Made by a program: the position numbers. DNA of 63,427 bases, the filler included, from an uncultured archaeon (lineage in GTDB: Archaea; Iainarchaeota; Iainarchaeia; Iainarchaeales; 1-14-0-10-31-34), in assembly GCA_964442255.1 (NCBI GenBank). It is 3 parts of 3 records of this genome, joined end to end, with 100 filler letters (N's around TTAATTAATTAA, not from the genome) between each part and the next. Parts side by side here need not be neighbours in the genome. Positions count along the whole stretch, not along the records: positions 1 to 27,888 come from CAYTYC010000017.1; 2 more parts are not named here. One strand, given 5' to 3'. Position 1 is the first letter of the stretch. Each line of letters opens with the position of its first letter. This document shows positions 21,001-24,000 of this stretch, piece after piece.

Positions 21001-24000
21001 GGGGCAGACTGACTGTGAACACATCGGCGACACGCTGGGAGTTGAGCCAAGGTGGAGATGCTGCTGCGCAAGTGACTAATTACAATATTACCTCAAAGAA
21101 AACAGTTAATCAAGAAGCTTGATGAAATCTTTTTTCTTCATTTTCAGGTCCTGCTTAATGATTTTGTTCAGCAGGCCCGGCCCAATTGGTTCAGTGCCGT
21201 GAACCGGCACACTGGTTTTTCTTCCGTCCGGGTGAGCAAAGCGGTGATAGGCTATATTGCCACCGGCAGTCAGGATTTGGTGAACTGGTTTTTCTTCTGT
21301 CCGGGTGAGCAAAGCGGTGGTGGCTTCCAGTCACACGGCTTTTCTTGAAGCCCGGTTTTTCCAACGCGGCAAGCAGTTTTTTGGGCTTAACCTGCTTTGC
21401 CAAAGAATTACACCTCAACCATTTGAATGCCTACAAAGTGGTTGGAGGATTTTTCTGTCCGCTCTTCCGAGCACAATCCAATTACTTCCTTGACTCTTTT
21501 AATCAGTTCGTCCATGGACTTTGCCTGGGTGTGGCAGCCCTGCAGTTCCGGAACATCAGCCACAAGCCAGCCGGCCTCATCGCGCTCAATTACAACCGTA
21601 AAAGCCTTTTTTCCCATAAACTTCACCTAAAATAATAGTGCCTGAACCCGGATTTAAACCTATTGCCCGGGTGGTTTGCGGTTTCAATTTTTTGTAATGC
21701 CTTCATTTCATTTACCCCCTTCTTTTGCTTCTGTTCCTTCTATTTTCCTTTTGCTTCTGTTCCTTCTATTTTCCTTTTACAAATGTTTTGGCCTGCCTTA
21801 AGTATTCCTTTAAACAAAATTCAACAAGCAAGCGTGGCTTTTTCTTTTCGACTGAATCAATGAGTGCTTTGAAGTAGGTTTCTCTTTTTTCGGAGATGTT
21901 TATTAAAGGAAACCCCGCATCCAAAAGTGTCTTGTTAAATAATAGCCTGCAGATTCTTTTGTTTCCGTCCAAAAAAGGATGAAGTGCATAAATTCGGTAA
22001 TGGGTTAAAGCTGCTTTTTCAACAGGGTTTAAGCTGCTTTTTTTATGCCATTCAATAAACTGCTTCAGCAATGAAGGAACTTCCCGGTGCCCGGGCGGCC
22101 TGTAAGCGATTTCAATGCTGAGCGGGTTTTCTTCATCTCTTTTATGCAGGTAAACCTGTCCTTGCCTTAGCTTTCCGGGTTTTTTTGTTTCAAAGTTTGC
22201 CATTATTGTTTTATGCAAGCCAAGCAAATATTGCTTGCTTAGTTCTCTTCCGCCCTTAATGGACTCAACCGCTTTGAGCATGCTTTTGCCAATCTGTTCT
22301 CTTAAGGAAAGATTTAAATCTTTCCCGTATGCTCTCTCCACGTCTTTTAAGCTGACATCAACATCTTCAGTGGTTAAAGTGGTGAGAGTAAAAAGAATTG
22401 TTTGGTCAACCTCAAATTTCCTTTTTTTTGCCGGGCTCAGCGACTCAAGTTTTCTGTTAAACGCTTCTTTGAAAAGCAGTGTTTTTATTACTTCATCTTT
22501 TGAAATGTTTTCAGCATCGTACTCTTTTCCTGAAATCCTCTTTACAATTTCGTCCTTAAAGGCTTCAGTGGTTTTCTGAACTGCTTTTTTCGTTGGCTTT
22601 TTTGGCCCAAAGTATTTGCTGAACTTCTTTGACTTGCTTACTACAAAATAGCTTAGCTCCAGATAATAGTAATTTTTTCCTTTAATTTTCTTTTTTCTCA
22701 AAACCATGCAATAGTTAGGCGGATAAAACTATTTAAATATATGCGCCTAACCAGTTAGGCGGAGAAGCAAACCAAAAAAATGGCGGCTAACCGCCTTTTT
22801 GTCGCGTGAAAGTTTGCGGGGTGGAGGATTCGAAGAACCTTTTTAGAAAAAAGGTTCATCAAAAATACCAAAAACACGAATCCTCCGCAAGGAAGGCATC
22901 GGAACAGCATATTTATGAGGTATTGAGCGAAGCGAAATACCTTGACGTATCCGCATGTAAAAAAACAAGAACCCTCCGCAAGGAAGGCATCGGAACAGCA
23001 TATTTAGAAGGGGTTGACCAAAGGGAAACCCCTTGACGTATTCGCGTGTAAACTTCGCGTGAAAGTTTGCGGGGTGGAGGATTCGAAGAACCTTTTTAGA
23101 AAAAAGGTTNNNNNNNNNNNNNNNNNNNNNNNNNNNNNNNNNNNNNNNNNNNNNNNNNNNNNNNNNNNNNNNNNNNNNNNNNNNNNNNNNNNNNNNNNNN
23201 NNNNNNNNNGGATTCGAAGAACCTTTTTAGAAAAAAGGTTCATCAAAAATACCAAAAACACGAACCCTCCGCAAGGAAGGCATCGGAACAGCATATTTAG
23301 AAGGGGTTGACCAAAGGGAAACCCCTTGACGTATTCGCGTGTAAACTTCGCGTGAAAGTTTGCGGGGTGGAGGATTCGAACCCCCGTAGGCACTAAGCCA
23401 CAAGGCCCTCAACCTTGCCGGTTTGACCGCTCCCGCAACCCCGCAAAAGCATAAGGGTTTCTGATGCGAAAGGTTTAAATTGAATAAATTCCAGTGTTTA
23501 AAGGATGAAGAAAAAAATTGTTTTCGTGGCGCTTTTTTTAGGGCTGGTGCTGGTTTTTGGCTGCCCGCAGCAAAACGGCCCGCCTTCAAACGGCGGCCAG
23601 CCGACTTTGCCTGAATCCACGGACGGAAACCTGACTGTAAAGGTTTTGAAACTGGAGGACGAGTTTTGGGTGTTGGATGGAACGGTTACAGTGCGCGGGC
23701 CGGTAACCGAAACAAAAGCAATTGATGCGGGGTTTGCAGAGTTTGAAATCTTGGAAGGGCTTTACTCTGTGACAGTGGACGCGCCGGGCTTTGTCTCTGA
23801 AACCGAAGCCGCGGAAGTAATTGCCGGCATTCACCGGCAAATCAATTTCTATCTGGAAAGGGCGGAAGATAAGCGAAACTGGGGCACAAAAGAATAATAA
23901 AAACAAAAAGAGCTGATGTTTTTTCAGGTTGATGTGATATCTTAAGAAAGCTTATTTCATTATTATGATTTTAGCATCAGGAAAATGCCTCTTAATACCT

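What a model noticed while it worked through the whole genome (the two positions that open the first line are those of the whole stretch)
22815..23445. Five tRNA genes are trailed by a second copy of their own last 15-20 nt, and one is preceded by a copy of its first 15 n [...]
Behind tRNA-Leu(GAG) (23445-23361, minus strand) the last 20 nt of the gene (TTCGAATCCTCCACCCCGCA) recur at 23087-23068 and 22834-22815, as the ends of tandem units of about 253 nt that each also hold one or two copies of the two-hairpin element. The same kind of stub follows tRNA-Ser(UGA) (C17:24747-24728, 20 nt, 69 nt behind the gene), tRNA-Ala(CGC) (C31:17-1, 17 nt, 53 nt behind), tRNA-Leu(UAG) (C12:16418-16433, 16 nt, 246 nt behind) and tRNA-Leu(UAA) (C5:26160-26174, 15 nt, 321 nt behind, scaffold gap between); tRNA-Tyr has the mirror image, a 15-nt copy of its 5' end 243 nt upstream (C38:3336-3350). 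Every 3' stub starts inside or just after the T loop; four of the five (not Leu-UAG) are [...]
Evidence so far: Scan of 44 located tRNA genes for copies of their first and last 15 nt (1 mismatch allowed) on the same contig: hits at Leu-GAG (2), Leu-UAG, Ser-UGA, Ala-CGC and Tyr, besides the Lys-UUU/Lys-CUU pair that share their 5' end; exact extents, gaps and flanks; sequences read directly.
(Added by a program. Inside this text positions count along the whole contig: they may not be those of the stretch shown here. "Call 12" and the like, gene names such as g00115 and contig names such as C1 are that model's own, and its searches are not shown. The text may have been shortened before it was handed on; [...] marks where a part breaks off. 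The agent that wrote the report below was given it as the finding of a first reader that could run no searches.)

Follow-up and report, generated by a model that had tools for sequence, protein, structure and literature searches.

The report
Repeated tRNA tail copies behind tRNAs
In this small archaeon and its relatives many tRNA genes are followed by short hairpin-rich DNA that ends in a second copy of the gene's own last 13-20 bases, which looks like the scar of DNA repeatedly inserted at the tRNA's 3' end.

Summary
The window lies in an archaeal genome. Behind tRNA-Leu(GAG) (23445-23361, minus) the last 20 nt recur at 23087-23068 and 22834-22815. The repeat is really 33 nt (tRNA positions 54-73 plus 13 nt of trailer).

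Cognate copies of positions 61-73 lie within 400 nt downstream of 5 of 42 tRNA genes here and 9 of 44 in a gap-free single-contig relative. Non-cognate controls gave 0 of 1606 and 3 of 1816. At least 15 further genomes of the order have such stubs.

Over 36 stubs, identity effectively begins at position 59-61 and ends at 73. The T-loop-like heptamer in front differs often. A hairpin usually abuts the stub.

Within one genus the same tRNA carries a stub in 3 of 10 genomes, with two spacer types. Stubs match each species' own tRNA variant.

Best reading (about 0.45): hairpin-module DNA inserted just after the discriminator base with a 13-20 bp (here 33 bp) target duplication, then amplified in tandem. 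The enzyme is unknown: Cas1 was not found here, and the one tyrosine recombinase hit is not linked to the stubs. Closest known: casposon duplications at tRNA ends, integrase att repeats and the E. coli tyrT 178-bp repeats.

The parts
23361..23445 (-). tRNA-Leu(GAG) gene, intact, no intron
   Evidence: ARAGORN, Infernal RF00005 46.1 bits
23348..23380 (-). First copy of the 33-nt repeat: tRNA positions 54-73 plus the first 13 nt of the trailer
   Evidence: Sequence read; blastn self-matches; extension count
23254..23347 (-). First spacer: a small trailer hairpin (AACTT..AAGTT) followed by one copy of the two-hairpin element
   Evidence: 99% match of 23254-23380 to 22961-23087
23211..23240 (-). 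A/T hairpin followed by TTCGAATCC; the start of a stub cut off by the scaffold gap
   Evidence: the 31-nt stretch is identical to 23079-23109
23110..23210 (.). 100-N scaffold gap; the sequences on its two sides overlap by 31 nt, so the number of units is not known
23055..23087 (-). Stub 1 (20 nt at 23068-23087) plus 13 nt of repeated trailer
22870..23052 (-). Two 91-nt copies of the two-hairpin element; its relatives lie inside predicted tRNA introns elsewhere in the genome
   Evidence: TRF period 91, 2.0 copies, 85%; blastn hits at C1:84209-84277, C15:27181-27224, C17:17024-17070, C28:12779-12828, C34:1788-1830 and C4:5395-5450, each within an ARAGORN-predicted tRNA gene's intron span
22877..22886 (-). 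GGAGGATTCG, the inverted complement of stub positions 56-65 (CGAATCCTCC at 22823-22832)
   Evidence: Read. In the predicted fold the rival pairing of linker UUUGA with UCGAA wins for this locus
22835..22864 (-). Linker TTTTTGATGA, a 10-bp A/T hairpin and its last bases, abutting stub 2
22802..22834 (-). Stub 2 (20 nt at 22815-22834) plus 13 nt of repeated trailer; unique flank follows
   Evidence: a Logan contig runs from the flank into this stub
21766..22707 (-). Neighbouring Fic-domain gene, not part of the repeat
   Evidence: Pfam PF02661, E 2.1e-18
24817..24976 (-). tRNA-Ser(UGA) gene with a 76-nt intron that begins with an A/T hairpin module
   Evidence: ARAGORN with introns, Infernal, sequence
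24728..24816 (-). 69-nt spacer (GC hairpin, GTGAGATTC, linker, A/T hairpin) followed by the 20-nt Ser stub at 24728-24747
   Evidence: RNA fold z-score -5.69, with the GUGAGAUUC/GAAUCUCAC stem enclosing the A/T hairpin
16954..17128 (-). tRNA-Arg(UCU) gene whose intron holds a copy of hairpin 1 of the two-hairpin element
16810..16953 (-). Two 72-nt tandem units, each a 52-nt spacer plus a stub (16882-16901 and 16810-16829; 3 mismatches in the T-stem strand)

Best explanation
The stubs are target duplications. Short non-coding DNA made of palindromic hairpin modules (39-316 nt here and in relatives; occasionally kb-sized gene cassettes at tRNA-Tyr) was inserted immediately 3' of the discriminator base of tRNA genes. 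The insertion copied the last 13-20 bp of the gene, or 33 bp at Leu(GAG).

The upstream copy keeps the tRNA intact. The downstream copy is the stub.

The T-loop-like heptamer in front of the stub is at least partly the outer arm of the inserted palindromic module.

Once two repeats exist, further insertion or unequal crossing-over builds tandem arrays (Leu-GAG and Arg-UCU in this window).

Shown: the anatomy, non-randomness, recurrence across the order, presence/absence within a genus, the same spacer family at different tRNAs, and stubs that follow each species' own tRNA sequence.

Inferred: that a staggered-cut integration made them, and which enzyme did it. The enzyme is unknown and may be encoded off-genome or lost.
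For: 1. Specificity. Cognate 61-73 copies were found for 5 of 42 tRNA genes (this genome) and 9 of 44 (G037, one contig of 1,048,949 bp without N). Non-cognate controls gave 0 of 1606 and 3 of 1816, and those 3 lie inside ORFs.

2. Boundaries. In 36 stubs of 32 tRNA genes (141 scanned), mismatches are 64 of 252 in positions 54-60 against 14 of 468 in 61-73; the search itself capped 61-73 at 2 mismatches. By position the counts are 55:14, 56:19, 58:12, 60:1. The match ends 0-4 nt after position 73 except in tandem arrays.

3. Same spacer, different tRNAs. In G037 a spacer of about 105-115 nt follows Gly-UCC, Ser-UGA, Ile-UAU and Ile-GAU, each with its own cognate stub. A related spacer lies inverted at Ala-GGC.

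4. Presence/absence. tRNA-Ile(UAU) in one genus has a stub in 3 of 10 genomes: G037 and G106 share one spacer, G122 has another. The other 7 have neither spacer nor stub. In G122 the conserved downstream gene starts about 70 nt after the stub; in G084 it starts about 52 nt after the tRNA.

5. Stubs track their own tRNA. The Ala-CGC stubs of G037 and G076 each carry their species' own acceptor variant.

6. Design. A hairpin of at least 8 bp ends 0-11 nt before position 61 in 26 of 36 stubs, against 3.5-6.8% of random sites.

7. Tandem arrays with a shared repeat occur in this window, at G037 Met and at G076 Ala-CGC.

8. Long inserts. tRNA-Tyr is followed by a 1.8-kb insert here and a 3.1-kb insert in G037, bounded by repeats of 15-21 and 30 nt that start in the T loop.

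9. Precedent. Casposons make 14-bp duplications at a tRNA-Leu gene, up to 35 nt elsewhere, and form tandem arrays sharing one duplication (PMC4779613, passages read).
Against: - No enzyme. Cas1 was not found in this genome (93.8% complete) and was found in only 10 of 121 genomes of the order. Among the five genomes checked, four (G000, G037, G032, G028) show one full-length strong tyrosine-recombinase hit each (G032 has two further weak partial hits), and G062 has four hits. IS200-type transposases occur in 2 of those 5.
- No terminal inverted repeats were seen at the spacer ends, and the tRNA-proximal ends of spacers are heterogeneous.
- Duplication length varies (about 13, 16, 20, 30, 33 nt), which is odd for a single enzyme.
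- In G037 tRNA-Gly(GCC) carries the identical 105-nt spacer with a T-loop-like end but no stub.
- One edge of both 3' and 5' stubs falls at the mature tRNA end. A DNA enzyme would not obviously know where that is.
- The same modules abut true tRNA 5' ends and fill introns. They may therefore be functional parts of tRNA genes rather than mobile DNA.
- The filled and empty sites come from different species about 70% identical, so the empty sites are not strictly allelic.
Confidence: 0.45

Rival explanations
1. Local tandem duplication without any insertion, as in the E. coli tyrT/tyrV operon. Slippage or unequal crossing-over duplicates the segment from the T loop through the trailer. This may be seeded by similarity between the T loop (TTCGAAT) and the T-loop-like or linker motif (TTTTGAT, TYYGRAT) at the ends of trailer modules.
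For: - The two arrays in this window are true tandem repeats in which the trailer recurs after each stub. Leu-GAG has a 33-nt shared repeat and a 253-nt unit; Arg-UCU has 72-nt units.
- E. coli K-12 tyrV is followed by three further copies of its last 19 nt at 178-nt spacing, also starting in the T loop. This was verified.
- Trailer modules carry T-loop-like ends even where no stub follows (G037 Gly-GCC).
Against: - Most stubs are single and are followed by unique flank, not by a second copy of the trailer: extension past position 73 is 0-4 nt in 31 of 36.
- The same spacer occurs at different tRNAs and in both orientations.
- Sister genomes lack the spacer and the stub together.
Confidence: 0.17
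2. Classical att-site relics. Plasmids or viruses integrated by a tyrosine integrase that crosses over in the T loop and carries its own copy of the tRNA 3' end. Later deletion left only element ends between attL and attR.
For: - The repeats run from the T loop to the 3' end and sometimes beyond, the usual span of T-loop att sites (recalled from Williams 2002, not read here).
- The kb-sized inserts at tRNA-Tyr, with toxin-antitoxin-like and other genes and 15-30 nt repeats, look like decayed islands.
- A tRNA fragment left by a mobile element is described in Caldiarchaeum (PMC3293823, abstract read).
Against: - No integrase lies in or beside any stub locus examined.
- Among five stub-bearing genomes checked, four have only one full-length strong tyrosine-recombinase hit and G062 has four. 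That the lone hit is the chromosome-resolving Xer type is my guess from its size and ubiquity.
- A non-coding remnant of about 100 nt would need to carry the exact 13 nt of each different tRNA and of each species' variant.
- Spacers occur in both orientations.
- The T-loop-like heptamer often differs from the tRNA's T loop, which is hard to reconcile with an identical crossover region.
Confidence: 0.15
3. A functional element kept by selection. The hairpin module plus stub would be part of tRNA gene expression. It could be a terminator or promoter cassette, a processing signal, a decoy, or a spare 3' segment that pairs with the tRNA's 5' strands, possibly as a T-loop intron-like arrangement.
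For: - Positions 61-73 stay matched to the tRNA while the heptamer in front drifts.
- The design recurs at the same tRNAs in different families: Arg-UCU here and in G062; Ser here and in G028, both followed by ATGCAT.
- The same linker-plus-hairpin module ends 2 nt before true tRNA 5' ends (Val-CAC and Val-UAC here, several in G037). Its linker sits where other tRNA genes have a TATA-like box.
- Spacer plus stub folds far better than shuffles (z -5.7, -4.7, -2.9).
Against: - Stub presence is patchy within a genus (3 of 10) and covers only 12-24% of tRNA genes.
- C56 is replaced by T in 18 of 36 stubs. By general tRNA knowledge this would spoil a working T loop.
- I saw no bulge-helix-bulge motif at the junctions by eye; no dedicated search was run.
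Confidence: 0.18
4. Assembly artefact: a collapsed or mis-scaffolded repeat creates apparent extra copies.
For: - A 100-N gap lies inside the Leu-GAG array and the sequences on its two sides overlap by 31 nt.
- Hairpin modules sit at many contig ends.
Against: - Stub 2 with its unique flank lies on one Logan contig without differences.
- The Ser and Arg stubs lie in ungapped sequence.
- The same design is found in a gap-free single-contig genome (G037) and in many other assemblies.
Confidence: 0.02

Closest known systems
E. coli tyrT-tyrV distal repeats (178-bp units, rttR/tpr region)
   Same: A tRNA gene is followed by tandem units that each end in a copy of the gene's own 3'-terminal segment, beginning inside the T loop. 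In K-12 I found three further copies of the last 19 nt at 178-nt spacing. The Leu(GAG) and Arg(UCU) arrays of this window have the same layout.
   Different: - It is a single bacterial locus, and the copy includes the encoded CCA.
- The units are long, and the K-12 record annotates a small RNA (rttR) and a small protein gene (tpr) there.
- There is no hairpin module abutting the stub.
- Here the feature affects 12-24% of tRNA genes, mostly as single stubs, across an archaeal order.
- The history and processing of the tyrT repeats is recalled from 1980s papers that I did not read here.
Casposons (Cas1-dependent transposons) at tRNA gene ends
   Same: - Insertion at a tRNA gene with a long target duplication: 14 bp at tRNA-Leu in Methanosarcina, up to 35 nt for another family.
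- Tandem elements are separated by one shared duplication.
- Duplication length is family-specific (PMC4779613, passages).
- A leader motif upstream of the duplicated segment is needed, and only about 5 terminal bases of the element matter (PMC6614799, abstract).
- The 13-14 nt core seen here (60/61-73) and the T loop lying just upstream fit that geometry.
   Different: - Cas1 was not found in this genome, and was found in 10 of 121 genomes of the order.
- No terminal inverted repeats and no polymerase gene are present.
- The inserts are 39-316 nt of hairpin modules.
att repeats of integrase-borne elements in archaeal tRNA genes
   Same: - Direct repeats of a tRNA part flank inserted DNA.
- tRNA fragments are left near tRNA genes (PMC3293823, abstract).
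- The kb-sized tRNA-Tyr inserts found here fit this kind best.
   Different: - No integrase is present.
- The inserts are tiny and non-coding.
- Both orientations occur.
- The same spacer occurs with different cognate stubs.
REP/BIME-type and MITE-type hairpin repeats
   Same: A genome-wide family of short palindromic modules with conserved linkers, arranged as mosaics in intergenic DNA. The comparison with BIMEs is from memory.
   Different: - The modules are tied to tRNA gene ends and introns.
- They are bounded by long copies of the tRNA end instead of 2-10 bp duplications.
- No matching transposase is found consistently.

Membership tests
Casposon or casposon-derived miniature element | A Cas1-family casposase in the element or the genome | tested here: not met
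   PF01867 gave 0 matches in G000, G032, G028 and G062 and 1 in G037. It was found in 10 of 121 genomes of the order.
Casposon or casposon-derived miniature element | Long target-site duplication (14-15 bp or more) at a preferred site such as a tRNA 3' end, and tandem copies sharing one duplication | tested here: met
   The core identity spans 60/61-73 and ends at 73. Tandem arrays are seen. The casposon figures come from PMC4779613.
Casposon or casposon-derived miniature element | Terminal inverted repeats | tested here: not met
   Spacer ends compared by eye show at most ATTC/GAAT in some G037 copies. No formal search was run.
Integrase att-site relic (tyrosine recombinase, T-loop site) | Direct repeats running from the T loop to, or beyond, the tRNA 3' end | tested here: met
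Integrase att-site relic (tyrosine recombinase, T-loop site) | An integrase gene within or beside the inserted DNA | tested here: not met
   The spacers are non-coding. The tRNA-Tyr inserts hold toxin-antitoxin-like and other ORFs but no integrase by inspection of translations; no family scan was run on them. The only PF00589 hit in G000 is at C3:62333-62818, away from any stub.
Integrase att-site relic (tyrosine recombinase, T-loop site) | Fixed orientation of the element relative to the tRNA | tested here: not met
   The same module set occurs direct (Ile-UAU, Gly-UCC) and inverted (Ala-GGC, Leu-UAG) in G037.
tyrT-type tandem distal repeats | Tandem units that each contain the tRNA's 3'-terminal segment plus the following trailer | tested here: met
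   Met for Leu-GAG and Arg-UCU in the window. Not met for the single stubs, 31 of 36. The E. coli layout was verified.
tRNA intron in the T loop (splicing-endonuclease substrate) | A bulge-helix-bulge motif at both junctions | tested here: inconclusive
   None seen by eye or in the predicted folds. No dedicated motif search was run.
tRNA intron in the T loop (splicing-endonuclease substrate) | The exon after the insert is needed to complete the tRNA | tested here: not met
   The upstream gene is already complete through position 73. 18 of 36 stubs have T in place of C56.
IS200/IS605-derived palindromic elements | A Y1 (HUH) transposase in the genome | tested here: inconclusive
   PF01797 has 2 matches in G000 and 1 in G032, and none in G037, G028 or G062, which also have stubs.

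The most novel reading that the evidence does not exclude
An order of small archaea carries a so far undescribed insertion system. Enzyme-orphan palindromic hairpin modules home to the exact ends of tRNA genes (after position 73, before position 1, and into introns). On 3' insertion they copy the last 13-20 bp of the gene, possibly by recognising the tRNA-like fold of the DNA or the T loop as an anchor. Alternatively, module plus stub is a working part of tRNA transcription or processing in these organisms.
Probability: 0.3. Interest if true: 0.75.

Novelty: new variant of a known kind. Interest (0 to 1): 0.55.

Why it matters
Copies of a tRNA's 3' end are a textbook mark of DNA that integrated at tRNA genes. 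Here they bound tiny non-coding hairpin modules rather than islands.

They affect roughly an eighth to a quarter of the tRNA genes in two genomes of different families. They come and go within a genus. No recombinase can be pointed to.

That makes this lineage a compact system for three questions. How is DNA aimed at the precise end of a tRNA gene? How do hairpin repeats and tRNA introns spread in reduced archaeal genomes? Do long target duplications require a Cas1-type enzyme?

Practically, these repeats break assemblies. Many contig ends and two scaffold gaps in this window lie in them. They can also be mistaken for att sites of prophages.

Tried and rejected
- RNA evidence: no RNA holder was listed for the locus, so expression could not be examined.
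- Strain variants: an exact-match scan of metagenome contigs for the junction of stub 2 with its flank found nothing.
- Order-wide pattern scan: the count alone was uninformative outside this genome (15 hits in 14 other genomes against 14 control hits in 120). Only inspection showed that 8 of the 14 loci looked at are true stub junctions and 6 are unrelated.
- G076: I first took it for a closed genome, but its contig 1 is 70 kb. G037 was used instead.
- Splicing idea: reading the stub as a second exon was dropped. The gene is complete without it and I saw no bulge-helix-bulge.
- Compensatory change at Arg-UCU: I looked for it between the mutated stub and the upstream GGAAAGGGATTCG. The mutated stub pairs worse than the original would, so there is no support.
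- Terminal inverted repeats and flanking repeats at non-tRNA copies of the modules in G037 were looked for by eye only, and none was convincing.
- rRNA: no copies of the 16S or 23S 3' ends lie within the next 1 kb.
- The lone Cas1 gene of G037 has no recognisable cas2, polymerase or tRNA-end repeat near it.
- Literature: searches on tRNA/archaea/integrase/T-loop, DPANN/tRNA intron/split tRNA, casposon/tRNA/MITE, tyrT/178/repeat and Woesearchaeota/tRNA/intron/repeat/hairpin returned no paper describing this arrangement in archaea. Subscription journals are not covered.
- ARAGORN run on one pooled multi-FASTA returned about half the tRNAs. That table was discarded and redone per source.
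Full report
What the window is. Rfam finds archaeal 16S and 23S rRNA, archaeal RNase P RNA and tRNAs in the first 27.9 kb. The window's first 27,888 bases are contig C17 of a 1.28-Mb, 51-contig genome, about 46% G+C and 93.8% complete. ARAGORN with introns allowed finds 43 tRNA genes, many with long introns. Infernal finds 31.

The observation. On the minus strand tRNA-Leu(GAG) occupies 23445-23361. Its last 20 nt, TTCGAATCCTCCACCCCGCA, recur exactly at 23087-23068 and 22834-22815. 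Counting back from the discriminator base, these 20 nt are positions 54-73: the T loop, the 3' strand of the T stem, the 3' acceptor strand and the discriminator. The repeat runs 13 nt further into the trailer, so 33 nt are shared. After the last copy the sequence turns into unique flank, with a hairpin followed by a run of T and then a Fic-domain gene.

A 100-N gap (23110-23210) interrupts the first unit. The sequences on its two sides overlap by 31 identical bases and the upper side ends in TTCGAATCC. The assembler therefore stopped in the repeat, and the number of units is a minimum.

Logan contigs of two runs of one study are broken into 65-113 nt pieces across the repeat. One contig runs without differences from the Fic gene to 22831. 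Repeat pieces have 14.6-21.7 depth against 7.1-8.2 for the flanks. Those runs may be the source sample.

More stubs in this genome. Several more appear. tRNA-Arg(UCU) (17128-16954) is followed by two 72-nt units, each ending in TTCGAATACTTTCGGGTCCG (16901-16882, 16829-16810). Ser-type stubs lie at the ends of contigs C11 and C28. A second tRNA-Ser (C49) shares the Ser(UGA) 3' end, and its trailer runs off its contig. Besides tRNA-Tyr, both tRNA-Gln genes have a copy of their first 10 nt 60 nt upstream.

Control for chance. A cognate copy of positions 61-73 (at most 1 mismatch) lies within 400 nt downstream of 5 of 42 genes. Non-cognate pairings gave 0 of 1606, the upstream side 0 and the reverse complement 0.

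What lies between gene and stub. Every 3' stub here is abutted by a 9-10 bp A/T hairpin (AACTTTTT..AAAAAGTT and variants), itself preceded by a linker TTTTGRYSA. By the loose test this holds for 10 of 10 stubs, though that test also fires at 19% of random sites. A simple pattern for this hairpin gives 180 strand-hits in the genome. They occur as arrays at many contig ends, inside tRNA introns (for example at the start of the Ser-UGA intron), 2 nt upstream of the 5' ends of tRNA-Val(CAC) and tRNA-Val(UAC), three times upstream of 16S rRNA and once just after it.

The two-hairpin element itself matches sequence inside predicted tRNA introns at six places. The stubs therefore sit in a genome-wide family of modular palindromic repeats that is tied to tRNA genes.

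About 35-50 nt upstream of several stubs lies the inverted complement of stub positions 56/57-65: GGAGGATTCG for Leu, GTGAGATTC for Ser, AGGGAATC for Ala. In the predicted Ser fold this stem encloses the A/T hairpin (z -5.7). In the Leu fold the linker UUUGA pairs with UCGAA instead. The module thus behaves as a long palindrome whose outer arm resembles a T loop.

Relatives. The hairpin module is found in all 8 other genomes of the family and in some other families of the order. A pattern for 'A/T hairpin arm + 2 nt + T loop' hits this genome 9 times against 0 for the reversed control. Elsewhere it gives 15 hits in 14 genomes against 14 control hits in 120 genomes. The count alone says nothing. 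On inspection, however, 8 of the 14 foreign loci are stub junctions 70-160 nt behind a tRNA whose end they repeat: Gln, Ser, Arg, Leu and Ala genes in G100, G067, G028, G062, G088, G073, G032 and G076. The other 6 are unrelated.

To avoid a pattern tuned to this genome I fetched the whole single contig of G037, a member of another family (1,048,949 bp, no N). There 9 of 44 tRNA genes have a cognate 61-73 copy within 400 nt, against 3 of 1816 non-cognate pairings, and all three of those lie inside ORFs. With two mismatches allowed the figure is 11 of 45. The feature is therefore not an assembly artefact and is not peculiar to this genome.

Anatomy over 36 stubs (141 tRNA genes scanned, 32 with a stub; search limited to at most 2 mismatches in 61-73). 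Mismatches to the tRNA are 64 of 252 in positions 54-60 but 14 of 468 in 61-73. They pile up at positions 55, 56 and 58, with only one at position 60. C56 is T in 18 of 36. The heptamer is TYYGRAT-like whatever the tRNA's own T loop is. In G037 the same spacer behind tRNA-Gly(GCC) ends in ..GTTCCGAATC with no stub after it. The tRNA-derived core is thus about 60/61-73, 13-14 nt. The heptamer seems to belong largely to the spacer, although in the A/T-hairpin type it is often identical to the tRNA's T loop. The match ends 0-4 nt past position 73 in 31 of 36; the other five are tandem units. A hairpin of at least 8 bp ends 0-11 nt before position 61 in 26 of 36, against 3.5-6.8% of random positions.

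Evidence for gain by insertion.
1. In G037 one spacer family of about 105-115 nt, built of three hairpin modules, follows Gly-UCC, Ser-UGA, Ile-UAU and Ile-GAU, each with its own cognate stub. Its modules lie inverted between tRNA and stub at Ala-GGC.
2. Among ten genomes of G037's genus, tRNA-Ile(UAU) has spacer plus stub in three and neither in seven. G037 and G106 share one spacer and one tRNA variant; G122 has a different spacer. In G122 the conserved downstream gene begins about 70 nt after the stub, and in G084 about 52 nt after the tRNA.
3. Leu-CAA and Ser-GGA carry stubs in G092 and G123 but not in G037.
4. The Ala-CGC stubs of G037 and G076 each carry their own species' acceptor sequence.
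5. In this genome's family, G001 has a minimal case: tRNA-Leu(GAG), a 39-nt spacer (one linker, one hairpin, 8 nt) and a stub. G008 Leu(GAG) has none.

These facts fit DNA arriving at the tRNA end and copying the target. They are hard to fit to an element that brings its own copy of the tRNA end, or to a single ancient structure.

Larger inserts exist too. tRNA-Tyr is followed by 1.8 kb here (two toxin-antitoxin-like gene pairs, judged from the translations only) and by 3.1 kb in G037. These are bounded by 15-21 nt and 30 nt repeats that begin in the T loop.

What made them is open. Cas1 was not found in this genome and was found in 10 of 121 genomes of the order. Among five stub-bearing genomes checked, four have only one full-length strong tyrosine-recombinase hit and G062 has four. 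That the lone hit is a Xer-type enzyme is my guess. IS200-type transposases are present in 2 of the 5. I saw no terminal inverted repeats. The duplication length is not uniform.

One edge of every stub, 3' or 5', coincides with a mature tRNA end, and the same modules abut true 5' ends. In G037 leaders and trailers are mirror-image copies of the same modules. Two readings stay open: recognition of a tRNA-like fold, or a role of the modules in transcription or processing. No RNA data were available.

Comparison with known cases. The layout of the two arrays in this window is that of the E. coli tyrT-tyrV operon. I checked this on K-12: three further copies of the last 19 nt of tyrV, starting at A58 in the T loop, recur every 178 nt in the region annotated rttR/tpr.

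Casposons give the closest mechanistic parallel: a 14-bp duplication at a tRNA-Leu gene, up to 35 nt in another family, tandem elements sharing one duplication (PMC4779613, passages), and dependence on a motif upstream of the duplicated segment (PMC6614799, abstract). The defining enzyme and the inverted repeats are missing here.

Integrase att repeats and tRNA fragments left by mobile elements are well known (PMC3293823, abstract). They best fit the tRNA-Tyr inserts.

I found no paper describing small hairpin spacers bounded by tRNA-end copies in archaea. Subscription literature was not searched.

Verdict. The finding is confirmed and extended. It is a new, lineage-wide variant of a known kind of feature. 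My best reading is insertion with target duplication followed by local amplification, at moderate confidence. A tyrT-like duplication, att relics and a functional role remain live rivals.

Noticed in passing
window 1283-1420, 3164-3182; G000 contig ends (e.g. C5:1-104, C17:1-78, C19:1-142, C23:1-161, C35:1-235): Arrays of linker (TTTTGRYSA) plus A/T or GC hairpins. Three sit in tandem upstream of 16S rRNA and one just after it. Many sit at contig ends, so this repeat family is a main cause of assembly breaks. The linker lies about 31-23 nt upstream of the tRNA 5' end, where other tRNA genes have a TATA-like box, so a promoter or terminator role is possible.
   Followed up: partly
G037 tRNA flanks, e.g. 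356560, 353711, 769483, 384786: Leaders end in a hairpin with a CGAAA-type loop directly at tRNA position 1. Trailers begin with the mirror-image hairpin (TTTCG-type loop) directly after position 73. tRNA genes are thus bracketed by inverted copies of the same modules, reminiscent of rRNA processing stems.
   Followed up: partly
G000 C1:28150-28190 and C13:28874-28910; window 3730-3790: The trailer of tRNA-Ala(GGC) is nearly the reverse complement of the leader of tRNA-Gly(GCC) on another contig. A similar motif precedes tRNA-Ala(UGC) in the rRNA operon. These could be processing-stem halves or contigs that join.
   Followed up: no
G000 C38:3801-5664; G037 400147-403290: tRNA-Tyr is followed by 1.8-kb and 3.1-kb inserts bounded by repeats of its 3' end (15-21 nt and 30 nt). 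The inserts hold toxin-antitoxin-like pairs, a regulator-like and a methyltransferase-like ORF, judged from translations only. No integrase was seen.
   Followed up: partly
G000 C4:10672-10697 and 11431-11444: A T arm plus acceptor 3' strand of a tRNA-Thr-like gene lies behind a TATA-like run. A 14-nt copy of its end lies 760 nt upstream, with a gene between them. ARAGORN found no intact tRNA-Thr(GGU). This may be a split or long-intron gene, or another insertion.
   Followed up: no
window 1481-3155: The 16S rRNA match spans 1675 nt for a 1478-position model, so the gene carries about 200 nt of inserted sequence. A second 100-N gap lies between 16S and tRNA-Ala at about 3270-3370, again within hairpin repeats.
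   Followed up: no
G037 54340-55185 (L039:14034-15218): A lone 394-aa Cas1-family gene. Its neighbours, apart from an SMC-like ATPase and one ORF with a sub-threshold HTH hit, have no Pfam match. No cas2 or polymerase was recognised, and no tRNA-end repeat lies nearby.
   Followed up: partly
G000 C42:2036-2055: A weak tRNA-Gln(CUG) 3'-end look-alike (4 mismatches in 20) lies 498 nt downstream of the gene, with no hairpin before it. It is probably chance or very old.
   Followed up: no
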